This document shows positions 17,814 to 29,321 of a DNA stretch of 64,000 nucleotides, piece by piece. A program made the position numbers and the translations under genes. This DNA comes from an uncultured bacterium. Lineage in GTDB: Bacteria; Bacillota_I; Bacilli_A; RFN20; CAG-826. The stretch covers positions 325,376 through 389,375 of the forward strand of contig CASDYC010000001.1 of assembly GCA_949285665.1 (NCBI GenBank), given 5' to 3'. The notes beneath the pieces are model-generated. The model saw only the letters and a list, made by a program, of their open reading frames with translations, was not told the origin of the DNA and did no database searches. Every line of letters begins with the position of its first letter. Within the stretch, counting starts at the first letter, position 1.

Positions 17814-19469
17814 ATGGCCTTTGAAGTAAAAATAGAAAATTATGGTGTTGATAAGAAAATAAGATCAAACAAATTAGCACTAATTGATTTAATTAGCGAT
17901 GAAGATAAAACTAAATATTTAGCTGCAAGAGTTAACAATAGATTAAGAGAATTAACTTATGAAATATATTATGATTGTACAGTTGATTTTCTTGATTTAA
18001 ATGATTATGATGCATGTTCGGTTTATGAGAGATCTTTAAGATATTTATTTTCGATGGCATGTAAATTATTATATCCAAATTTACAATTTAGAATGTCTTA
18101 TAGTGTTTCAAGATCAATTCAAGTAAAAGGTTTAAGTGGAGCTACTTTTTCTCTTGATATGGTTGCACAAATTGATAAAAAAATGAGAGAAATTGTTGAT
18201 GCTGATTACGAATTTAAAAAGGTAATTGCCCCAATTGATGAAGCAAAAGAAATTTATAAAAAATTTGGATATCAAGATAAAATTGAAATCTTAAAATATA
18301 GACCTGAAAATACTGTTCACTTCTATAATTGTAACGGTTATATGAACTATATGTATGGTATTATGGTTCCTTCAACTGGTTATTTAACTGATTATAAAAT
18401 TAGATTATATAGTGATGGAATAATTCTCCAATATCCTCGTAGTGAAGAAAAAGGAAAAATTCCTCCATTTATTGATGCACCAGTTTTTGGAAAAACATTA
18501 AATGAATCATTTAGATGGGGAAAATTAATCGGTGCAAACTCAATTGCAAAAATTAATGAATTCAAAGACTTTTATGGTGATATTGCTTTTGCAAATATTT
18601 GTGAAACAAGACATAATCATATGTTATCAGAAATTGGTCAAGCAATTGAAAATAATATTGATAATATCAAATTAATTTGTATTGCCGGACCATCATCAAG
18701 CGGAAAAACTACTTTTGCAAATAGATTAAGAATCGAACTTCTTTCTCGTGGTATTAAATCAATTAAAATTTCAATTGATGATTATTACAAACTTAAATCA
18801 GAAATTCCTCTTGGAGAAGATGGAAAACCAGATTTAGAAACGATTCATGCTTTAAATATTGAAAGATTTAATCATGATTTATTAAATTTAATTCAAGGAA
18901 AAACGGTAACTCTTCCTCATTTTAATTTTGAAACTGGAAAAATTGAAGACGGGAAAACAATTTCTGTTGAAAAAGATGAACCTATTATTATTGAAGGAAT
19001 TCATGCTTTAAATAATATGCTCACTTCTTCAATTGCAAATGAACAAAAATACAGAATTTATATTGCACCTCAAGCTCAAATTTATCTTGATGATCAAAAT
19101 CCAATGTCCTTGACAGATTTAAGATTATTAAGAAGATTGGTAAGAGATTATAAATTTAGAAATGCACCAGCTGAAGAAACTCTTTCCATGTGGCAAAATG
19201 TTAGAGCTGGTGAATTTAAATGGATTTATGATACTCAAGAAAATGCTGATTATGTATTTAATTCATTTTTACAATATGAATTATGTGTCATTAAAAAATA
19301 TGCAATGCCACTTTTAACTCAAATTCCAAAAGACAATGAGTATTTCCCAATGGCTGAAAGATTAATGAGATTATTAAAATACTTTGAAGACATGGATGAT
19401 AATGTCGTTCCAAACAATTCACTTATTAGAGAATTTATTGGTGGATCTGTTTATCAAAATGTTTTATGA
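17814..19469 (+). CDS. Uridine-kinase-family (PRK/URK P-loop) protein with a long N-terminal ThrRS/TGS-like extension
   Basis: Walker A AGPSSSGKTTFANRL in the C-terminal half. The 551-aa architecture resembles the long 'uridine kinase' proteins of Clostridia. Confidence 0.55.
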   Translation: MAFEVKIENYGVDKKIRSNKLALIDLISDEDKTKYLAARVNNRLRELTYEIYYDCTVDFLDLNDYDACSVYERSLRYLFSMACKLLYPNLQFRMSYSVSRSIQVKGLSGATFSLDMVAQIDKKMREIVDADYEFKKVIAPIDEAKEIYKKFGYQDKIEILKYRPENTVHFYNCNGYMNYMYGIMVPSTGYLTDYKIRLYSDGIILQYPRSEEKGKIPPFIDAPVFGKTLNESFRWGKLIGANSIAKINEFKDFYGDIAFANICETRHNHMLSEIGQAIENNIDNIKLICIAGPSSSGKTTFANRLRIELLSRGIKSIKISIDDYYKLKSEIPLGEDGKPDLETIHALNIERFNHDLLNLIQGKTVTLPHFNFETGKIEDGKTISVEKDEPIIIEGIHALNNMLTSSIANEQKYRIYIAPQAQIYLDDQNPMSLTDLRLLRRLVRDYKFRNAPAEETLSMWQNVRAGEFKWIYDTQENADYVFNSFLQYELCVIKKYAMPLLTQIPKDNEYFPMAERLMRLLKYFEDMDDNVVPNNSLIREFIGGSVYQNVL

Positions 19470-20578
19470 TTTGTTAATTTATAGTAAATTTCTTTTTCCT
19501 TATTATATATATTAACTAAAATATAATAATAAACTTTCCTCATTTTAAGGTATCTTTCTTTAAATTCTTTATTTTCATTTAGTGATAATAAATGACTTGA
19601 GAAAATTTGTTCAATTCTAAAAAATACTTCGTATAAAGAAATTAATGTTAGATGGAATAAAGATTGTTCATTTGAATAAATCATTAATGGTGAAGAATGG
19701 GCAATCTCACTACTATATTCATAAAGTTTTGAATAGTTTTCTAATCCGGCCATTTTTTCAACACCATCTCTAAAATTAAGTTTATAATTTTCTTCTAATT
19801 TAAATTCATCAATTGCCAATAAATATCCATATTCGATATATTTTTTCATGTCTTTTGATTTTAAATTATAAACTTTCATCTCTTTTTTGATCTCTTCAAA
19901 TATTTCATTAGTTTTGTCAGGATTTTTTATTAATTTTCGATAAGCTAAAGAATATGTTAAATGTTTTAAATAAGATGTAATAACTGGTTTTTTATATTTT
20001 ATTAAAATTCTTAAAACACATTCAGTCTCATGTAGTGTTCTCCAGGTAGAAAATGCTTCTGCTTCAAATCCATTTGTTAATAATTCTAGTGTGCATTTTG
20101 AAATCTTAATACATTTCATTAATACATCCGAAATTAAAGTTATAAATGGATTATTTTTTGAAAATTGTAAATTAACTTTATTCATGAAATTTAAATATAA
20201 AGTTAAAGTTGAAATAGATGGAGAAAATTTATTTGCAAAATATTTTTCATTTAAATCTATTTTTTCATTAGTTAGGTATTTATCTAAAGCAATTGATGAT
20301 AAAGCATCAAGAGAATCGCTATCATTATTAAATTTTAATATCTCTTCCTCAGATTTTCCTTGGACACAATAATTATATTCTGCATATAAATATAAGAAAA
20401 CAGCATAAGGATTTATATCACTAAAATTATCTGATACAGAGGTATCTACTTCGTTATTATAATAATCAATGATATTATTTAATAAATTATATAAAAAATC
20501 TTCATCATATAATGGATTTTGATTTATTCTTTTATAAAATATGTTAAATTCTTCCTTAGTTATCTTTTGTATTTTCAT
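19454..20578 (-). CDS. Hypothetical 374-aa protein; last gene of the addBA operon
   Basis: ATG at 20578 with GAGGT RBS. Overlaps the upstream gene by 23 nt. No recognisable motifs. Confidence 0.5.
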   Translation of the reverse strand: MKIQKITKEEFNIFYKRINQNPLYDEDFLYNLLNNIIDYYNNEVDTSVSDNFSDINPYAVFLYLYAEYNYCVQGKSEEEILKFNNDSDSLDALSSIALDKYLTNEKIDLNEKYFANKFSPSISTLTLYLNFMNKVNLQFSKNNPFITLISDVLMKCIKISKCTLELLTNGFEAEAFSTWRTLHETECVLRILIKYKKPVITSYLKHLTYSLAYRKLIKNPDKTNEIFEEIKKEMKVYNLKSKDMKKYIEYGYLLAIDEFKLEENYKLNFRDGVEKMAGLENYSKLYEYSSEIAHSSPLMIYSNEQSLFHLTLISLYEVFFRIEQIFSSHLLSLNENKEFKERYLKMRKVYYYILVNIYNKEKEIYYKLTNHKTF

Positions 20579-21206
20579 AAATTACCTCAATTTGAACTTT
20601 ATTCATTTTTGCATAATATTCTAAATCATTAAATAAATCTTCACTAATTTGTTTTGCTATATAAATTTTACTAACAATTGGTAAGAAGAAACAACCATTA
20701 ATTAATGCTTCATTTGCAAGAACAAAACAATAATCATCCTCATTTCCAATGCAACATAATTTAATTTGATTAACAACTTCTTCTAATTTATCATATTTAA
20801 TTTCTAAATCATCTTCGTTATGCATTTTATAAAAATTTGCTAATAAAGCACGATAACCTAATTCATCCAATTTATTAAAATCATATTCTACATAAAATGG
20901 AGCATCGTTTTTTAGGTTTATTTTTGTTTGAAAAATTGCAATATTATAATCTTCTAACAATAAATTTATTTTTTCTTTATTCTCAAACTTTCCAGTATAT
21001 TGAGGTTTTTTAAAAAATACAACATTATCAAATAAATGCTCTAAAAATGGATATCTCTTATTATTTCTTTCATCAACATAATAATCAAGGTTACCTGATC
21101 TAATTAATTTAACATTTAACCAATCTTTCTTTTTTAATAAAGCCTGATAAATTTTTCTTTCATCATCTGAAAATTCATCTTCTAAAATTTTAATATCTTC
21201 AAACAT
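20556..21206 (-). CDS. Hypothetical 216-aa protein, translationally coupled to addA
   Basis: ATG at 21206 with GGAGG RBS. Overlaps the addA stop. Confidence 0.5.
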   Translation of the reverse strand: MFEDIKILEDEFSDDERKIYQALLKKKDWLNVKLIRSGNLDYYVDERNNKRYPFLEHLFDNVVFFKKPQYTGKFENKEKINLLLEDYNIAIFQTKINLKNDAPFYVEYDFNKLDELGYRALLANFYKMHNEDDLEIKYDKLEEVVNQIKLCCIGNEDDYCFVLANEALINGCFFLPIVSKIYIAKQISEDLFNDLEYYAKMNKVQIEVIYENTKDN

Positions 21207-24200
21207 TTATATTTACCTCCTTGATTTTATTATCTAATATTGAAATTAATAAGGTTTTGCATGGTTTTTTGAATTTTTCTTGAATATATTTTTTATAAAT
21301 ACTTAATTGAGTTTTATATTCTTCATCATCAATATTTTTTAATTTATAATCAATTATCTTTACTTCATTTTCATCAGCTATTATTAAATCAACAAAGCCG
21401 TGAATATCTTGATTTTTATCATAAAATTCATATTCTTTATAAATTTGTGTATTTTTAAGATTGGAAAATATATCCAATCTTAAAAATTTGTCAATTACAT
21501 TTTTATAACGAGATTCATTAATAAAACTTGTATCTTTAGTTTTTAAATCGATTAATGATAATAAATTATGAATTTTACTACCTTCATCTAATTTACTTTG
21601 AATATCATTATCTATAAATTCAACATTTTTACTGCCTTTTTTATTAATAATTTCAGAAAATTTAATTTCTACATTATTAATCGTAATATTTTCAACATCT
21701 TTAGGTTTATCCTTATTTTTTAATTCTGATTTTAAATTTAATTCTAATTCTTTTTTATAAGAATTAGTGATCGGAACGATAAATTGATTTGCAAATTCAT
21801 TATCTATTTCATAATCATTTATATATTGTTTGATAAATGATAAAAAAGAACTATCTTTTACAATTTTTTCTTTTTTATCATTTTCCAAAGTAACGATATT
21901 ACATTGTTCTCTAGCTCTTGTAATTGCAACATAATATAGTCTTACAAGTTCGTTAATAATTTCATTTTTGTTATATTTTTTAATTAAATTAAAATAAAAT
22001 GAATGCTTTTTATTCTTGTTTCCAATTTCTATACCATATTTTTTATTGCTCATAAATTCAGCAATTTCTTTAGATTGCTTTATTTGAATTTGATTTGAAG
22101 CAATATCGATTATGTAAATAATTGGCCATTCTAAACCTTTTGATTTAAATATTGTCATCATGTTTACAGCATCTTCAACAGTATTTAAATACTCACTTTT
22201 AATATCATCATTATTTGATTTGAGGTAATCGAAAATTAAAATTAAATCATACAAATTTTTACCACTATCTTCAAATTCTCTTGTTAAATTATAAAAGTAT
22301 TCAATATTGTCAATATTTGTTAATGGATCAGAAATTCTAGGTAATTTTTCGATAAATTCAAATTTTTGTATTATATTTAAAACTAGTTGAGTTAAAGATA
22401 AATTATTATTTTTAAAATCTTCATATAATTCGATACATTTTTTAATAATTTCACTATCTAAATATGTATTATTTTTTAAATTATTATAAATTGTAGAATC
22501 ATTAATTTTTTCATCAGAAATTCTTTTTGTTTCGTTATTTTTTTCACTAGAATCATCTTTATTTTTTTTATATAAGTATGATCTTGCAATTGATAAATAG
22601 TATTCTTTTAATTTTATTTCACTTCTTGTATCTTCATCTTTGCTAAGTTCATATATTAAAGAAATAATCGATTTTAATACAACAATTGGCATTGAGACAT
22701 TAATATCTTGATCTTTATAATTAATAATTGGAACATGATATTTATTAAATACTTTTTCAATTCTATCAAAATATTTTTTTCTAGATGCAATAATACAAAA
22801 ATCGCTAAATTTAGCTTCTCTTAACGTTTTAGTATCCTTATCATAGACCATAAATCCTGAATTCATTTTTTTGATTATATCCTGACAAATAAAATAACCA
22901 TAACAATCTAATTTAGATTTAATATTATATATTTTTGCATAATCTTGCATTTTTAAAGAAATATTCAATAAATGAACTCCATAATGGTCTTCATGAGCAT
23001 AAATATTTTGATTATAAGCTGTTAATCCATATTCAATGTGATGATCATCTTTATAATTAATATTGTCATCTTTTTCAAATAAATGACCAAAAATTTTATT
23101 AACATCATCTAAAATTTGTTTTCTTGAACGAAAATTTTTGGTTAATTGTAAGGCTTGACCTTTGGCTTTTTCATTTTTAAAAACTATAAATTTGTTATTG
23201 AAAATATCACAATTTGCATTTCTAAAACTATAAATTGATTGTTTAACATCCCCAACACAATATACATTATTATTTGAAAATTTATTTATGAAAGCTTCTT
23301 GTATATCACTTGTATCTTGGTATTCATCAATTAAAATAAATTTAAAAGTATTAGTTAAATATGTTTTTACTTCTTTAAAATCTAATAATTTATATGAAAT
23401 TTTTGCAATATCATCAAAAGTAAATTTATTGATCATTTTTTTATAATCATCTAATTTATCATTTAATGTTTTTACAATATTTAAAAAGAATTCTAATGTT
23501 TCATTTTCGTCTTCAATAAATTTTAAATTATCATCTAATTTTAATGGATATCCAATATACTCATTAATAATCGCATTAAAATCAACTTTAAATTTATCAT
23601 TTAAAGCTTTATCAGTTTCTCCTAATCTCATTTCCTTTTTTTGAGCCGTAGGTCTTTTATGTTCATCTAAAAATTTAATATAATTTACAATATCTTTTCC
23701 AAAAAATTCATTTAGATAATATTTTTCCGCTTCTCTTAAATAATTTGTATTTTCAAAATGTACTTCTTCATTATTAAAACATCCATCATACATTTTTTTA
23801 ATTTTTGAAAAGAAATTGTTTACATAATCATTAAAATCTTTTTTTGCAGTTTCTTTTGTTTTATATAACAATTTAAAATCATATAAATATTTTTCTTTAT
23901 CGATGCTTTTATCTAAAAAATCTAAAGTATTATAAATAATTGTTTTGAAAATATTTAAATCTAAAAAACAATATTCTTTAAAATATTTTATAAATGTCTC
24001 ATCGTTTGAATCAATTTTTTCTTGAATTATTTTATCAAGTATTTCGTCTTTTTTAATTTTGAGATCTATTGGATTAATAATAGATATATTTGAATTCAAA
24101 TTTAATAAATATGAAAACTTTTTAAAAACAAATAATGTAAAGGAGTCAAAAGTTTGGACATGCGAAGTATTTATTTGATCTATAAATTCCCTTTTTACAT

Positions 24201-24444
24201 TATTATCTGATTTTAAAGTGCTAATTATTCTATTTTTCATTTCAAAAGCAGCACTATTTGTAAATGTTAAAACTAAAATATTTGATGGAAGAAGGTCGTG
24301 ATTTAAAAAGACGTCTTTTACTTTATTTGATAAGACATCAGTTTTACCTGAACCAGCCCCTGCGGAAACAATAATATTAGAACTATAAGCCCTAATTGCT
24401 GCTAATTGTTCATCTGTAAAATGCTTTTCACTCATCTTCTTCAT
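21199..24444 (-). CDS. addA: ATP-dependent helicase/nuclease subunit A (UvrD-like helicase plus C-terminal PD-(D/E)xK nuclease)
   Basis: Walker A AGAGSGKT at the N-terminus and a C-terminal nuclease motif (GFVDLIIADENEVKIIDYK). 1081 aa. Confidence 0.85.
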   Translation of the reverse strand: MKKMSEKHFTDEQLAAIRAYSSNIIVSAGAGSGKTDVLSNKVKDVFLNHDLLPSNILVLTFTNSAAFEMKNRIISTLKSDNNVKREFIDQINTSHVQTFDSFTLFVFKKFSYLLNLNSNISIINPIDLKIKKDEILDKIIQEKIDSNDETFIKYFKEYCFLDLNIFKTIIYNTLDFLDKSIDKEKYLYDFKLLYKTKETAKKDFNDYVNNFFSKIKKMYDGCFNNEEVHFENTNYLREAEKYYLNEFFGKDIVNYIKFLDEHKRPTAQKKEMRLGETDKALNDKFKVDFNAIINEYIGYPLKLDDNLKFIEDENETLEFFLNIVKTLNDKLDDYKKMINKFTFDDIAKISYKLLDFKEVKTYLTNTFKFILIDEYQDTSDIQEAFINKFSNNNVYCVGDVKQSIYSFRNANCDIFNNKFIVFKNEKAKGQALQLTKNFRSRKQILDDVNKIFGHLFEKDDNINYKDDHHIEYGLTAYNQNIYAHEDHYGVHLLNISLKMQDYAKIYNIKSKLDCYGYFICQDIIKKMNSGFMVYDKDTKTLREAKFSDFCIIASRKKYFDRIEKVFNKYHVPIINYKDQDINVSMPIVVLKSIISLIYELSKDEDTRSEIKLKEYYLSIARSYLYKKNKDDSSEKNNETKRISDEKINDSTIYNNLKNNTYLDSEIIKKCIELYEDFKNNNLSLTQLVLNIIQKFEFIEKLPRISDPLTNIDNIEYFYNLTREFEDSGKNLYDLILIFDYLKSNNDDIKSEYLNTVEDAVNMMTIFKSKGLEWPIIYIIDIASNQIQIKQSKEIAEFMSNKKYGIEIGNKNKKHSFYFNLIKKYNKNEIINELVRLYYVAITRAREQCNIVTLENDKKEKIVKDSSFLSFIKQYINDYEIDNEFANQFIVPITNSYKKELELNLKSELKNKDKPKDVENITINNVEIKFSEIINKKGSKNVEFIDNDIQSKLDEGSKIHNLLSLIDLKTKDTSFINESRYKNVIDKFLRLDIFSNLKNTQIYKEYEFYDKNQDIHGFVDLIIADENEVKIIDYKLKNIDDEEYKTQLSIYKKYIQEKFKKPCKTLLISILDNKIKEVNINV

Positions 24445-26908
24445 CCTCTATTGAAATATCATCATTTGCTTTTTTGTTTGAATCAGTCACATTATTATAC
24501 TGATTGTAGTCGTTTTTTCTAACATAACAAATGTTAGAAAAACTACAGTATGTACAAGGAGTATTTCTTTCATTATCTTTTTTAATTCTTATTGGAAAAA
24601 CATCAAACTTATAATTTTTTATATCTTCTATTTTATTTATAATAACTTGTTTTGTTAATTCTAATATATCGCTAATATTTTTCTCTGTTATTCCTTCATC
24701 ATTTTTGACTTGATGCATAGGATAAGATTTTAGTTTTTTAAAATAATCACTATTTAAACTCTTTTTAAATTCTTCTTCACTATTTAAAAAACCTGTAAAA
24801 TACATTTTATCTTTTTCTTTTTTAAGATCAATTACACCATCATCAATATATAATAAATTAGGATTTAAAAGTCTTGAAAAAGCAGCAAAACCTATTTCAT
24901 AGTTCATATAATAATTATTTGAAGTTACTAATAAAATATATGTTGGAAGTTGAATGTTAACTCCATAGCTTATCTCATCATAATCAAAAGCTTTTCCATT
25001 TGTTTTATAATCTAAAACATTTATATATTTTTGATTATTTATACTTGTTATTATTAAAGAATCAATTTTACCTTCAAAATCATAATCATCTAATTTAATT
25101 TTGAAATTTTTCTCATGAAAATCTTTAACATAGTTAATATTTTTCTTTATATCTAATAATACATCAATATAAGATTTAAAATTTTCGATAATTTTATCAC
25201 TTAAAATAAGTTCAATTTTATTTAAAAAATAATTATTTTTATTTTCTTCAACGCTTTTTTCTAAATTAAAATTATCTTTATAAACATTTTCTAAAACTTT
25301 ATGTAAAAAATTTCCAACTCTTATACTAAAATCATCGTTATTTTCATTTATCTTTAAAATATAAGTTAAATAATATGAAAATGGACAATTCGAAAATTTT
25401 TGAATTTGAGAAATTGAAAAGCTTTTTTCTTTTAATTCCTCGATTTTTTGCTCATTTTCCCAAATAAAATTATTTGTGTAATAATTTTTTTCTATAATGT
25501 TTGAATTATTATAAACGTTATAAAAAATCGAATTTTTATTAAATTTATCTTTCTCATTTTTTATAATACTAAATTTTAAATTTGCATCAATTGAAGAAAA
25601 ATCATTTTGTTCTTCTCTTTCTCTAATATATTCTTTTTCATTTAAATTAAGATCTTTAACAAAAAGTGATGGATAAATTCTTTCTCCGACGTGTTTTTTA
25701 TAATAAGAAATTAAACTAAAATTTCCAAATATTATAAAATTTTTAACTCTTTCATATTCTAGTTTATATAACTGGTATGAAGGATTTATATTATTTTCTT
25801 TTAATAATTTATCATCTAAAATGTTATCGTTTGTGAATTCTTTTGGAAAAACTCCTTGAACAAAATCTAATAAATAATATTCTTTATCTAATTTACAATC
25901 AATTTCATCATTTAAAATTTCAATACCTTTATTACCAACTTGTTCAATATTTATAGTAGATTGAAGAATTTGATTTAAAACATTAAAACCAAAATCAAAA
26001 TCGTAATTATTTAATTTATATTGATTAATAATTTTATTCACTTGTAATATATATTGATTAACAATTGGATATTTATTATTAGTGTCAAGATTTTTAGTTA
26101 CACTATATAAATAATTTAAATATCTCTTAACACAATTTATATTAAGCAAAGATGTTCTTTTTTTATAATAAAAATCTAAATTGTAAGCTTTTTTAAAGTA
26201 AGGTAAAAAGAAAGCAAGATTATCAATATTGCCAATTATCTTTATGTTATTTTCTAATTTTCTTTCGTTTTTAATTTTTATAACATCAACATTTTTATTT
26301 TCTTCATTATTATAAGTTTTAATATTTATTTCAGAAATTTTCTTAAATTTTTCTACAATTGAATTCATAACATATTCAAGTTGCTGAAAAATATTGTTAA
26401 AAACTACTACATTTTGTTTATCATTAGGTTTTAAAAAATCAAAAAACTCCGCAAAACCTAAATATTTTGCATTTAAATTATATTTTTTCGCTAGATAATT
26501 AATTTCAATATCATCCTTTAAATCAATAAAAATTAATTGTTTATTTTTAAAAGTTTGATTTGTATATTTATTTTCAATTAGTAAATTTTTATTTAATAAG
26601 TCACGTTTAATATTCAAAAATAACTGAAGATTTTCATCATTTGTTTCGTTTTTTTCTAATAAGTGAACAATATTTAAATATTTTTTAATCTTTAAATAAT
26701 CAAAAATATGTTTTTTATTCTTATTTGTTAATGATAATAAATAATTAATTGTTTCAGCATCATAATCAAAAGAAAAATATTTTTTAAAAGATGTAACATC
26801 ATAAAAAGTAAAAGAAATATAAGGATTTTTGTCTCTATAACTTAAAACTAAAGAATTACATTCTTTATTAGCAACTATTATATATTCAATACCTTTTTCT
26901 AAAATCAT
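24428..26908 (-). CDS. addB: Helicase/nuclease subunit B (AddB/RexB) with an Fe-S cluster nuclease domain
   Basis: C-terminal nuclease (VLDYKTN...QLPTYIL) flanked by Cys...CxxCx5C (CPFSYY...CTYCSFSNIC). No Walker A. Coupled upstream of addA. Confidence 0.75.
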   Translation of the reverse strand: MILEKGIEYIIVANKECNSLVLSYRDKNPYISFTFYDVTSFKKYFSFDYDAETINYLLSLTNKNKKHIFDYLKIKKYLNIVHLLEKNETNDENLQLFLNIKRDLLNKNLLIENKYTNQTFKNKQLIFIDLKDDIEINYLAKKYNLNAKYLGFAEFFDFLKPNDKQNVVVFNNIFQQLEYVMNSIVEKFKKISEINIKTYNNEENKNVDVIKIKNERKLENNIKIIGNIDNLAFFLPYFKKAYNLDFYYKKRTSLLNINCVKRYLNYLYSVTKNLDTNNKYPIVNQYILQVNKIINQYKLNNYDFDFGFNVLNQILQSTINIEQVGNKGIEILNDEIDCKLDKEYYLLDFVQGVFPKEFTNDNILDDKLLKENNINPSYQLYKLEYERVKNFIIFGNFSLISYYKKHVGERIYPSLFVKDLNLNEKEYIREREEQNDFSSIDANLKFSIIKNEKDKFNKNSIFYNVYNNSNIIEKNYYTNNFIWENEQKIEELKEKSFSISQIQKFSNCPFSYYLTYILKINENNDDFSIRVGNFLHKVLENVYKDNFNLEKSVEENKNNYFLNKIELILSDKIIENFKSYIDVLLDIKKNINYVKDFHEKNFKIKLDDYDFEGKIDSLIITSINNQKYINVLDYKTNGKAFDYDEISYGVNIQLPTYILLVTSNNYYMNYEIGFAAFSRLLNPNLLYIDDGVIDLKKEKDKMYFTGFLNSEEEFKKSLNSDYFKKLKSYPMHQVKNDEGITEKNISDILELTKQVIINKIEDIKNYKFDVFPIRIKKDNERNTPCTYCSFSNICYVRKNDYNQYNNVTDSNKKANDDISIEDEEDE

Positions 26909-26924
26909 TTTTATTCCCTTATTC

Positions 26925-28415
26925 TTATTTTGAATAATTTATTGCATTTTTGATGGCTTTTTTCCATCCATCATAAAGTTTTTCTCTTTTTTCTTCATCC
27001 ATTTTACAATAATATTCTTTTTTAATTTCATTTAATTTTTTAACTTCATCCAAAGATTTAAAAAATCCGGAATATAAGCCAGCTAAATATGCAGCTCCGG
27101 TTGAAGTCATTTCTAAATTATTGTCAACTTCTACTTTCATATTTAATAAATCAGCTTGAAATTGCATTAAATAATTATTTTCAGCTGCACCACCATCTGC
27201 TTTTAAAATATTAGTTTTAATTTTTGCGTCTTTATGCATGACATTAAAAACATCTTTAACTTGATATGCGATAGCTTCTAAACCGGCTTTTACAATATTT
27301 TTATAAGTTGTATTTTGACTAATATTATAAATTGTTCCTCTAACATCATCATTCCAATATGGAGTACCAAGTCCAACAAAAGCTGGAACAAAATAAACTT
27401 GTTGTTCGTCTTTTATTTCGTTTGCTAAATTTTCTGATTCACTTGCTGTTTCAATAACTTTTAAATTATCTCTTAACCATTTAATAACAGCACCACCAAC
27501 AAAGATACTTCCTTCTAAAACATAGCAATATTCATCTTTAATTTTCCATCCAATTGAAGTTAACAAACCTTTTTTTGAAAAAACTATGTTTTTACCAATA
27601 TTTAAAAGCATAAAACAGCCAGTACCATAGGTACATTTAAAATCACCTTTATTAAAACAGGCGTGTCCAAATAATGCAGCTTGTTGATCACCAATTACAG
27701 AAGTAATTTTTACTTTTGTATTAAAAAAGTCACTATATCCAAATAAACTACAAGAATCTTGTACTTTTGGTAACATATTTCTTTTAATATTAAATAAATT
27801 TAATAATTCATCATCATAATCAAAGGTATTTATATTATAAAGCATTGTTCTAGAAGCGTTTGAGACATCTGTTTTAAATTCTTTTTTATTAGTAAATCGA
27901 TAAATTAACCAAGAATCAATTGTTCCAATATAAACATTATTTTGTATATATGATTCAGGTAATTTTTTAACGTTTCTTAAATATTCTAAAATGAAAATCA
28001 TTTTTGAAGCACTAAAATAAGGATTAATTTTTAATCCAGTTTTCTTAAAAATAAATTCTTCTTTATCTAAAAATCTTTCGCAAATTTCATGAGATTGTCT
28101 TGATTGCCAGATTATGCAATTATATAAAGGTTCGCCAGTAAATTTATCAAACGCTACAACAGATTCTCTTTGATTTGTAATTCCAATACAATCTATATCA
28201 TTAAATGTTGTATTACTTTTAATTAAAACTTGGTTAATGCATTCAACTACACTCAACCAAATTTCTATTGAATCGGCTTCGATCCATCCACTTTTTGGCG
28301 TAATTAAATTAATCTCTCTAGAAGATTTTTCAATTATTTGACCATATTTATCAATTAATATTGCTCTTGAAGATGTCGTTCCTTGATCAATACTTAAAAT
28401 ATATTTTTTATTCAT
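26925..28415 (-). CDS. glpK: Glycerol kinase (FGGY family)
   Basis: The N-terminus ILSIDQGTTSSRAILID...GWIE matches the GlpK signature closely. Confidence 0.85.
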   Translation of the reverse strand: MNKKYILSIDQGTTSSRAILIDKYGQIIEKSSREINLITPKSGWIEADSIEIWLSVVECINQVLIKSNTTFNDIDCIGITNQRESVVAFDKFTGEPLYNCIIWQSRQSHEICERFLDKEEFIFKKTGLKINPYFSASKMIFILEYLRNVKKLPESYIQNNVYIGTIDSWLIYRFTNKKEFKTDVSNASRTMLYNINTFDYDDELLNLFNIKRNMLPKVQDSCSLFGYSDFFNTKVKITSVIGDQQAALFGHACFNKGDFKCTYGTGCFMLLNIGKNIVFSKKGLLTSIGWKIKDEYCYVLEGSIFVGGAVIKWLRDNLKVIETASESENLANEIKDEQQVYFVPAFVGLGTPYWNDDVRGTIYNISQNTTYKNIVKAGLEAIAYQVKDVFNVMHKDAKIKTNILKADGGAAENNYLMQFQADLLNMKVEVDNNLEMTSTGAAYLAGLYSGFFKSLDEVKKLNEIKKEYYCKMDEEKREKLYDGWKKAIKNAINYSK

Positions 28416-29245: not shown

Positions 29246-29321
29246 GGGCCTGTAGCTCAGTTGGTAGAGCGCCTCCATGGCATGGAGGAGGCAGCGAGTT
29301 CGATCCTCGTCAGGTCCACCA
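29246..29321 (+). tRNA. tRNA-Ala (anticodon GGC), CCA encoded
   Basis: Manual cloverleaf: acceptor GGGCCUG/CAGGUCC with G3:U70, anticodon arm CCUCC-AUGGCAU-GGAGG, T-arm GCGAG-UUCGAUC-CUCGU, discriminator A, CCA. Confidence 0.9.

What the first reader, a model, noticed from the sequence alone, without database searches (positions are those of the whole stretch)
19454..21206. Two unknown genes translationally coupled to the end of the addB-addA (rexBA) operon
Four genes are chained by overlaps: addB/addA by 17 nt, addA/orf216 by 8 nt, orf216/orf374 by 23 nt. The two ORFs are 216 and 374 aa, and each has its own strong RBS. Neither has detectable nucleotide-binding, nuclease or other familiar motifs, and neither is part of any AddAB system I know. 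Tight coupling to a recombination and anti-phage helicase-nuclease suggests accessory or regulatory subunits, or a small defence/immunity add-on.
Basis: seen in the sequence. Interest (0 to 1): 0.55.

Follow-up and report, generated by a model that had tools for sequence, protein, structure and literature searches.

The report
DUF5677 gene pair trailing addBA
The two genes after addB-addA are real and conserved, but they are not AddAB subunits: one is a lineage-wide DUF5677 protein kept even where addBA has been deleted, and the other is its optional small partner, so the finding is an ordinary operon-tail arrangement in a very compact genome.

Summary
Observation confirmed. On the minus strand, addB-like (24428-26908), addA-like (21199-24444), orf216 (20556-21206) and orf374 (19454-20578) overlap by 17, 8 and 23 nt, and both ORFs have Shine-Dalgarno sites. 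Such overlaps are normal here: 15 of 40 same-strand junctions in the window overlap.

orf374 is a Pfam DUF5677 protein with over 1288 full-length homologs, found in 440 species-level genomes of uncultured gut Bacilli (RFN20/CAG-826 type). Across 80 species loci the synteny is glpK-[addB-addA]-[orf216]-DUF5677, convergent with a PRK-like gene. addA is upstream in 39 loci. In 38 loci glpK is upstream and addBA is absent, with addB remnants in some. A tree implies at least 8 gains or losses of addBA.

DUF5677 is strongly constrained (dN/dS 0.045, against 0.16-0.21 for AddAB). Outside this lineage, DUF5677 genes sit in prophages and defence or mobile islands.

orf216 belongs to a small family (81 clusters) with no conserved catalytic residues and a weak Tpt1/DarT-like fold. 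It always lies directly upstream of DUF5677, with or without addBA.

Best reading: an autonomous DUF5677 module, with orf216 as its optional partner, carried in the addBA operon tail. The biochemical function remains unknown. Low to moderate interest.

The parts
24428..26908 (-). addB-like gene (826 aa): C-terminal PD-(D/E)XK nuclease with a C...CxxCx5C cysteine motif; the N-terminal part has no Pfam hit
   Evidence: PDDEXK_1 83 bits; TIGR02773 C-terminal match; cysteines read from the translation
21199..24444 (-). addA-like gene (1081 aa): UvrD-type helicase plus C-terminal PD-(D/E)XK nuclease
   Evidence: UvrD-helicase 160 bits; TIGR02785 addA_Gpos 319 bits, below the equivalog cutoff
20556..21206 (-). 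orf216: small alpha/beta protein of a narrow family, always directly upstream of the DUF5677 gene; putative partner of orf374
21215..21222 (-). Shine-Dalgarno AAGGAGGT of orf216, inside the 3' end of addA
   Evidence: read
19454..20578 (-). orf374: lineage ortholog of Pfam DUF5677, an all-helical soluble protein
19676..20125 (-). DUF5677 domain (aa 152-301) of orf374
   Evidence: PF18928, 53.6 bits; core shared with phage/MGE DUF5677 proteins over aa 117-304
20027..20044 (-). codons for the invariant W179-R-T-L-H-E184 motif, the family-wide signature WR[ST]LHE
   Evidence: codons checked
19688..19699 (-). codons for the H294-S-S-P297 motif, the family-wide signature HxSP
   Evidence: codons checked
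20584..20588 (-). Shine-Dalgarno GAGGT of orf374, inside the 3' end of orf216
   Evidence: read
26925..28415 (-). glpK (FGGY kinase), conserved upstream anchor of the syntenic block; directly precedes DUF5677 in genomes without addBA
17814..19469 (+). 551-aa PRK/uridine-kinase-like gene, conserved convergent downstream neighbour; its 3' end overlaps that of orf374 by 16 nt

Best explanation
orf374 and orf216 form an autonomous module centred on the DUF5677 protein. The module sits at the tail of the addBA operon for reasons of history and genome compaction, not as part of the AddAB enzyme.

Shown:
- orf374 is the vertically inherited ortholog of Pfam DUF5677 in a large clade of small-genome uncultured gut Bacilli (RFN20/CAG-826 type).
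- It occupies a fixed site: glpK-[addB-addA]-[orf216]-DUF5677, convergent with a PRK-like gene.
- It evolves about as slowly as the flanking housekeeping genes.
- It stays intact where addBA has been deleted in situ.
- orf216 is found only immediately upstream of the DUF5677 gene, usually overlapping it, whether or not addBA is present. It has no conserved catalytic residues.

Inferred:
- The DUF5677 protein is a self-sufficient single-chain enzyme or ligand-binding protein. Its pocket would be built from the invariant WR[ST]LHE and HxSP motifs, which it shares with phage- and island-borne DUF5677 proteins.
- orf216 is a stoichiometric, translationally coupled partner or regulator of the DUF5677 protein, dispensable in most species.
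- The ancestral state was co-transcription with addBA. This hints at a nucleic-acid or foreign-DNA related activity that does not require AddAB.

The substrate and chemistry are unknown.
For: - DUF5677 membership: (38 of 38 relatives match).
- Breadth: over 1288 full-length homologs and 440 species genomes.
- Synteny over 80 species loci: addA upstream in 39, glpK upstream without addBA in 38, unresolved in 3.
- Metagenome examples of all four layouts.
- addB N-terminal remnant between glpK and DUF5677 in L070 (jackhmmer 5e-34, blastp 1e-19), and a weaker one in L043/L050.
- NJ tree with parsimony: at least 8 changes of addBA state and 3 of orf216.
- Constraint: dN/dS is 0.045 for DUF5677 and 0.11 for orf216, against 0.21 for AddA, 0.16 for AddB, 0.018 for GlpK and 0.012 for PRK. 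Median cross-species identity is 45% for DUF5677, 51% for GlpK, 30% for AddA and 24% for AddB.
- orf216 is always followed by DUF5677 in loci retrieved through orf216 itself.
- A stand-alone orf216-DUF5677 pair with a divergent upstream gene occurs in L100.
- The orf216/DUF5677 overlap is conserved in most loci.
- The orf216 family has only K26 invariant.
- Overlaps are the norm in this window.
- Motifs are shared with phage/MGE DUF5677 proteins (hhalign probability 98.7).
Against: - The loci were retrieved through DUF5677 itself, so genomes that lost both DUF5677 and addBA are invisible.
- I could not scan whole genomes, so addAB elsewhere in the 'addBA-less' genomes is not formally excluded. 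The in situ remnants argue against relocation.
- No physical evidence exists for an orf216-DUF5677 complex.
- The link to addBA in half of the species could still reflect a shared pathway.
Confidence: 0.65

Rival explanations
1. Accessory or regulatory subunits of AddAB. On this view orf216 and/or orf374 bind the helicase-nuclease and modulate end processing, Chi response or RecA loading.
For: Four-gene overlap chain with strong ribosome-binding sites. addA lies directly upstream of DUF5677 (gap 2-140 nt) or of orf216 in 39 of 77 resolvable species loci. The same chain occurs in distant relatives with 36% identity for orf216. addBA is probably ancestral at this site.
Against: 38 of 77 loci keep an intact, conserved DUF5677 gene with no addBA. 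addB remnants show in situ loss, and the tree implies at least 8 state changes. DUF5677 evolves far more slowly than AddA or AddB, which is unexpected for co-evolving subunits. orf216 is absent from 30 of 39 addBA-containing loci and present in some addBA-less ones. glpK-DUF5677 junctions are just as tight (3-97 nt), so tight spacing is not specific to addA. DUF5677 relatives elsewhere are stand-alone genes with no addAB nearby.
Confidence: 0.1
2. A domesticated defence or immunity effector. On this view the DUF5677 protein is an anti-phage or anti-MGE enzyme, possibly HEPN-like, fixed in the chromosome next to the anti-phage AddAB nuclease, with orf216 as its sensor or inhibitor.
For: DUF5677 genes outside this lineage lie in several mobile or defence contexts. 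These are Bacillus phage SPR; an SPbeta-like prophage next to AimR/AimP, an integrase and DndB; beside an integrase; and among transposases, an AAA_23 ATPase and HsdR. The domain is enriched next to serine recombinases in defence islands (bioRxiv 10.1101/2025.10.07.681051). The MGE-type proteins have an invariant R-x4-H (RWRSLHE) at the start of a long helix, which is HEPN-like.
Against: This lineage's copy is syntenic and vertically inherited in 440 species, with dN/dS 0.045. That is unlike patchy, fast-evolving defence genes. There are no PADLOC hits for orf374, orf216 or 33 MGE-type DUF5677 proteins, no Pfam HEPN hit and no HEPN structure among the Foldseek PDB matches. The first Arg of the R-x4-H is T, V or A in this clade. 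The DUF5677 ORF tested in that preprint was not among those giving phage defence.
Confidence: 0.17
3. orf216 is an ADP-ribosyltransferase-fold enzyme (DarT/Tpt1-like) and DUF5677 is its antidote or partner, in the manner of a toxin-antitoxin pair.
For: The only non-trivial Foldseek PDB matches of the orf216 model are yeast Tpt1 (7yw4: E 1.4e-3, probability 1.0, TM 0.65 normalised to the target) and DarT/DarTG (7omw, 7omy, 7yk3: E 0.07-0.5).
Against: TM normalised to the query is only 0.37-0.39, with rmsd 5-11 A. No Arg or His is invariant in the 15-member alignment, and across 69 members only K26 is invariant. There is therefore no H-Y-E or R-S-E triad and no Tpt1 R-H-R-R tetrad. There is no Pfam hit to the Tpt1 or DarT families. 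The BFVD matches are all uncharacterised proteins. DUF5677 occurs without orf216 in 67 of 77 resolvable loci, so the two are not an obligate pair.
Confidence: 0.05

Closest known systems
Pfam DUF5677 (PF18928), uncharacterised family
   Same: orf374 scores above the gathering threshold and shares the WR[ST]LHE and HxSP motifs and a core of about 180 aa with phage/MGE members. It is a stand-alone protein of about 370 aa, like Bacillus phage SPR spr_109.
   Different: The N-terminal ~115 aa and C-terminal ~70 aa are specific to this clade. The first Arg of the MGE-type RWRSLHE is not kept. The gene is a fixed, syntenic, strongly constrained chromosomal gene in at least 440 species rather than patchy island cargo. 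In some species it has a dedicated upstream partner, orf216.
AddAB (RexAB) helicase-nuclease operons with extra distal genes, e.g. Bacillus subtilis addB-addA-sbcD-sbcC (from general knowledge)
   Same: Extra genes are co-transcribed downstream of addA.
   Different: The extra genes here are not SbcCD-like, have no nuclease or ATPase motifs, and persist after addBA deletion.
RecD as third subunit of RecBCD (from general knowledge)
   Different: The two ORFs have no helicase or P-loop domain and no obligate co-occurrence with addAB.
Tpt1/KptA and DarT (ADP-ribosyltransferase fold)
   Same: Weak global fold resemblance of the orf216 model.
   Different: No catalytic residues are conserved and there is no sequence-profile match.
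DUF4909 (PF16253; PDB 4LQZ, uncharacterised protein)
   Same: Residues 28-81 of the close orf216 subfamily align with 4lqz_A (E 8.6e-4). Nine of 15 members give sub-threshold Pfam hits.
   Different: The scores are below the Pfam cutoff (18.8 against 25). The signal disappears with the 69-member profile. It covers only a quarter of the protein.

Membership tests
Pfam DUF5677 (orf374) | Match to the PF18928 HMM above the gathering score | tested here: met
   53.6 bits against 27.1 over aa 152-301. 38 of 38 aligned relatives match.
Pfam DUF5677 (orf374) | Family-wide conserved motifs WR[ST]LHE and HxSP | tested here: met
   W179-E184 and H294-P297 are invariant in 38 orthologs. They align with invariant W151-E156 and H275 of 33 phage/MGE members.
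AddAB holoenzyme component (orf216, orf374) | Obligate genomic co-occurrence with addA/addB | tested here: not met
   38 of 77 resolvable species loci have DUF5677 without adjacent addBA, and addB remnants show in situ loss. orf216 occurs without addBA in L001, L025 and L100. Whole genomes could not be scanned.
AddAB holoenzyme component (orf216, orf374) | Physical association with AddA/AddB | not testable with these tools
   The structure-prediction cap (2 jobs) was used on the monomers, and no experiments were possible.
AddAB (the two upstream genes) | AddA has an SF1 UvrD helicase and a C-terminal PD-(D/E)XK nuclease. AddB has a C-terminal PD-(D/E)XK nuclease with an Fe-S cysteine motif. 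| tested here: met
   Pfam and NCBIfam hits. The GAGSGKT motif, the DYK nuclease motifs and the C...CxxCx5C motif were read. Equivalog cutoffs are not reached, so the proteins are divergent.
ADP-ribosyltransferase fold, DarT/Tpt1 type (orf216) | ART-like fold | tested here: inconclusive
ADP-ribosyltransferase fold, DarT/Tpt1 type (orf216) | Conserved catalytic residues (H-Y-E or R-S-E triad; Tpt1 R-H-R-R) | tested here: not met
   No Arg or His is among the invariant columns of the 15-member alignment. Only K26 is invariant across 69 members.
DUF4909 (orf216 N-terminal part) | Match to PF16253 above the gathering score | tested here: not met
   18.8 bits against 25. Best member E-value is 4.5e-5. 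The signal is lost with the wider profile.
HEPN superfamily (orf374) | R-x4-6-H motif at a helix start in a four-helix HEPN fold | tested here: not met
   This clade has T/V/A-W-R-T-L-H, so the first Arg is absent. There are no HEPN Pfam hits and no HEPN structures among the Foldseek matches. MGE-type members do carry R-x4-H.
Known anti-phage defence systems (PADLOC) | Match to any PADLOC-DB protein model | tested here: not met
   No hits for orf216 or orf374. No consistent hits for 33 MGE-type DUF5677 proteins.
Type II toxin-antitoxin pair (orf216 + orf374) | The two genes always occur together | tested here: not met
   DUF5677 lacks orf216 in 67 of 77 resolvable loci. orf216 was never seen without DUF5677.

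The most novel reading that the evidence does not exclude
A phage/MGE-type DUF5677 effector was domesticated at the end of the addBA operon in the ancestor of the RFN20/CAG-826 gut Bacilli. It became an indispensable, AddAB-independent enzyme acting on nucleic acids or on a nucleotide-derived ligand. orf216, a catalytically degenerate Tpt1/DarT-like fold, serves as its lineage-specific sensor or regulator. That would make this locus the first route to a function for the whole DUF5677 family.
Probability: 0.12. Interest if true: 0.55.

Novelty: new member of a known kind. Interest (0 to 1): 0.3.

Why it matters
This result removes a tempting but wrong annotation of 'new AddAB subunits'.

It documents repeated in situ loss of AddAB in a large clade of reduced-genome gut Bacilli.

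It also shows that a DUF5677 protein is a strongly constrained core gene in at least 440 uncultured species, although elsewhere the family is cargo of prophages and defence islands. That contrast, together with the shared WR[ST]LHE/HxSP motifs, gives concrete mutagenesis targets for a family with no known function.

orf216 defines a small partner family that is absent from Pfam.

None of this is surprising enough to change current views of double-strand-break repair or phage defence.

Tried and rejected
- Foldseek against the PDB for orf374 gave only noise (best E 0.5).
- The BFVD search for orf216 gave only uncharacterised viral proteins with TM about 0.4.
- PDB sequence-profile searches found nothing for orf374 or for MGE-type DUF5677.
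- The 4LQZ/DUF4909 match of orf216 vanished with the wider 69-sequence profile.
- PHROGs gave only an unannotated family for orf374 (phrog_27456, E 9e-7).
- The idea that phage SPR spr_108 (218 aa) plus spr_109 (373 aa) is the same two-gene module was rejected, because spr_108 shows no similarity to orf216 by BLASTP or hhalign.
- The idea that the ORFs left between glpK and DUF5677 in addBA-less loci are divergent orf216 genes was rejected. They do not match the orf216 profile, and the L070 one is an addB N-terminal remnant. No addA remnant was found.
- The promoter and terminator scan was uninformative at 20% GC: 108 promoter-like sites against 118 expected.
- My initial assumption that the lineage is GTDB order RF39 was wrong. 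The named relatives are assigned to RFN20/CAG-826 (PMC8035907).
Full report
**1. Observation**

On the minus strand the window carries four chained genes:
- an addB-like gene, 24428..26908 (826 aa)
- an addA-like gene, 21199..24444 (1081 aa)
- orf216, 20556..21206
- orf374, 19454..20578

The overlaps are exactly 17, 8 and 23 nt. The addA stop and the orf216 start share ATGTTTGA. AAGGAGGT lies 8 nt upstream of the orf216 ATG, and GAGGT lies 5 nt upstream of the orf374 ATG (sequence).

AddA has UvrD-helicase and PD-(D/E)XK domains. AddB has a C-terminal PD-(D/E)XK domain with a C...CxxCx5C cysteine motif. Both are divergent and score below the NCBIfam equivalog cutoffs.

GC content is 19-22% across all four genes, with no compositional break.

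The overlap chain is not exceptional for this genome. Of 40 same-strand junctions in the window, 15 overlap, 25 are 10 nt or less apart, and about 96% of the window is coding.

**2. Are the ORFs real genes?**

Yes.
- orf216 has 15 word-indexed homologs (35-99% identity) and 81 clusters at 50% identity among 1.84 billion representatives.
- orf374 has more than 1288 homologs, nearly all 360-390 aa.
- AF2 models are confident. orf374 has pLDDT 87.5 and is all-helical. orf216 has pLDDT 89.1, pTM 0.84 and is alpha/beta.
- The window was compared with a 98%-identical MAG (L012, uncultured Bacilli bacterium BRZ_FB__bin55). dN/dS values are:

| Gene | dN/dS |
|---|---|
| PRK | 0.012 |
| GlpK | 0.018 |
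| orf374 | 0.045 |
| orf216 | 0.11 |
| AddB | 0.16 |
| AddA | 0.21 |

**3. What orf374 is**

orf374 is a member of Pfam DUF5677 (PF18928). It scores 53.6 bits against a cutoff of 27.1, over aa 152-301, and all 38 aligned relatives match. Public records call the relatives 'DUF5677 domain-containing protein [Bacilli bacterium]'.

The alignment of 38 orthologs has 60 invariant columns. These include GFExEAFSxWRTLHExEC, LKSKDxKxxIEYG, KxNFRDG, YExSSEIAHSSP and FFRxE.

No solved structure is related by sequence or by Foldseek. PADLOC gives no hits. PHROGs gives only an unannotated family.

**4. Genomic context across species**

A scan of one genome per GTDB species found relatives in 440 genomes. 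The named relatives, Ca. Alectryobacillus and Ca. Enteromonas/Alloenteromonas, are assigned to GTDB order RFN20, family CAG-826, with genomes of 1.2-1.8 Mb (PMC8035907).

I classified the 80 best loci by tblastn and profile HMMs. The layout is always glpK-[addB-addA]-[orf216]-DUF5677, usually convergent with the same 551-aa PRK-like gene.

| Upstream layout | Loci |
|---|---|
| addA upstream, no orf216 | 30 |
| addA and orf216 upstream | 9 |
| glpK directly upstream, no addBA, no orf216 | 37 |
| glpK-orf216-DUF5677, no addBA | 1 |
| unresolved | 3 |

All four layouts were also seen in independent metagenome contigs.

Junctions are tight in every layout. addA to DUF5677 is 2-140 nt, and glpK to DUF5677 is 3-97 nt. 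Tight spacing is therefore not specific to addA.

**5. Loss of addBA in situ**

In L070 the 855-nt space between glpK and DUF5677 holds a 265-aa ORF. Its first ~150 residues are an AddB N-terminus (jackhmmer 5e-34; blastp 1e-19 to AddB residues 1-170). L043 and L050 have a weaker 182-aa remnant (E 1e-4 to 2e-3).

A neighbour-joining tree of concatenated DUF5677 and PRK proteins from 57 loci needs at least 8 changes of addBA state and 3 of orf216. The tree is distance-based and midpoint-rooted, so these are rough minimum counts.

Median identity to the window proteins across species is:

| Protein | Median identity |
|---|---|
| PRK | 57% |
| GlpK | 51% |
| DUF5677 | 45% |
| orf216 | 31% |
| AddA | 30% |
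| AddB | 24% |

The DUF5677 figure is biased upward, because the loci were selected through DUF5677.

Together these results show that the DUF5677 gene is maintained under strong selection without adjacent addBA. That contradicts a role purely as an AddAB subunit.

Two caveats apply. I could not scan whole genomes for a second addAB. Genomes that lost DUF5677 are invisible to this survey.

**6. orf216**

orf216 is present in 11 of the 80 species loci, always directly upstream of DUF5677 and usually overlapping it.

The same holds in loci retrieved through orf216 itself, where there is no DUF5677 selection bias. DUF5677 follows in all resolvable cases (L001-L005, L092-L100, L108-L110).

Three loci have the pair without addBA: L001, L025 and L100. 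In L100 the upstream gene is on the other strand, so the pair stands as its own unit.

Across 69 family members only K26 is invariant. L11, A22, F65 and Y118 are at least 90% conserved, and W29 and N124 are at 88%. No Arg or His is among the invariant columns of the 15-member alignment, and none appears among the columns conserved at 60% or more in the 69-member one.

The only non-trivial Foldseek matches in the PDB are yeast Tpt1 (7yw4: E 1.4e-3, TM 0.39 by query and 0.65 by target) and DarT/DarTG (E 0.07-0.5, TM about 0.37). This is a lead to an ADP-ribosyltransferase-like fold. It is weak, it has no profile hit to the Tpt1 or DarT families, and no catalytic residues are conserved.

A short N-terminal similarity to DUF4909/4LQZ does not survive a wider profile. 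BFVD matches are uncharacterised.

I infer that orf216 is a non-enzymatic partner or regulator of the DUF5677 protein. The basis is strict gene order and conserved translational coupling. It is not a demonstrated interaction.

**7. The wider DUF5677 family**

tblastn found a DUF5677 protein (spr_109, 373 aa) in Bacillus phage SPR and another on a Spirosoma plasmid next to an IS4 transposase.

Homologs of spr_109 are patchy in Bacillus and other phyla. They lie in these contexts:
- in an SPbeta-like prophage near AimR/AimP, an integrase and DndB
- beside an integrase
- among transposases, an AAA_23 ATPase and a type I HsdR

A preprint found DUF5677 enriched next to serine recombinases in defence islands. 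The DUF5677 ORF it tested was not among those that gave phage defence (bioRxiv 10.1101/2025.10.07.681051).

Profile-profile comparison aligns the gut-Bacilli clade with the MGE type over aa 117-304 (probability 98.7). The shared motifs are GF..A...WR[ST]LHE, GW and HxSP. The N- and C-terminal parts differ.

The MGE type has an invariant RWRSLHE, which reads as R-x4-H and is HEPN-like. This clade has T, V or A in place of the first Arg. No HEPN family or PADLOC model is matched.

The conserved Arg, His and Glu cluster suggests a catalytic or ligand-binding site that both types retain. Its chemistry is unknown.

**8. Verdict**

The two genes are best explained as an autonomous DUF5677 module, with orf216 as an optional partner. 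The module is ancestrally located at the tail of the addBA operon in a compact genome, and it is retained after repeated in situ deletion of addBA.

A defence-related origin is plausible from the contexts of the wider family. This copy behaves like a core gene.

orf374 is a new member of a known but uncharacterised family, and orf216 belongs to a small uncatalogued family. Interest is low to moderate.

Noticed in passing
window 19454-19469: The convergent PRK-like gene (17814..19469, +) and orf374 (19454..20578, -) overlap by 16 nt at their 3' ends. This leaves no intergenic room for terminators, and none was detected.
   Followed up: partly
window 24428-26908; L004, L006, L108, L109: AddB in this lineage is short (769-826 aa, against ~1160 positions in the Gram-positive AddB model TIGR02773). 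Only the C-terminal nuclease and cysteine region is recognisable. AddA and AddB evolve much faster than their neighbours: 24-30% identity across species, and dN/dS 0.16-0.21.
   Followed up: partly
L070:9143-9937; L043 and L050:9300-9845: ORFs of 265 and 182 aa lie between glpK and the DUF5677 gene. They are decayed N-terminal remnants of addB, direct traces of in situ loss of the helicase-nuclease.
   Followed up: yes
L085:7649-9929; L088:6503-7889: In two Enteromonas-type genomes, 1.4-2.3 kb holding small hydrophobic ORFs, some on the opposite strand, is inserted between addA and the DUF5677 gene. This breaks the usual adjacency.
   Followed up: no
L101:3001-4831 (Bacillus phage SPR spr_108/spr_109): The phage DUF5677 gene (373 aa) is preceded by a 218-aa gene, the same sizes as orf216 and orf374. 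spr_108 shows no detectable similarity to orf216.
   Followed up: yes
window 21467-21494 (minus strand): A TTGACA-16-TATATT promoter-like site (11 of 12 matches) lies inside the 3' end of addA, about 260 nt upstream of orf216. It could give addBA-independent transcription of the pair. Such matches are at chance frequency in this AT-rich DNA.
   Followed up: no
protein P0242 (633 aa): One DUF5677 homolog is fused to NTPase_1 (PF03266) and DUF2478 (PF10649) domains. This is the only domain fusion seen in the family.
   Followed up: no
window 17814-19469 and all related loci: A 551-aa protein has a C-terminal PRK/uridine-kinase domain (aa 287-484) and a long N-terminal region without a Pfam hit. 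It is the most conserved gene of the block, at 48-85% identity.
   Followed up: no
window 29246-29318: This is the only Rfam match in the whole 64-kb window: one tRNA gene on the + strand, just upstream of the block that contains glpK and addBA.
   Followed up: no
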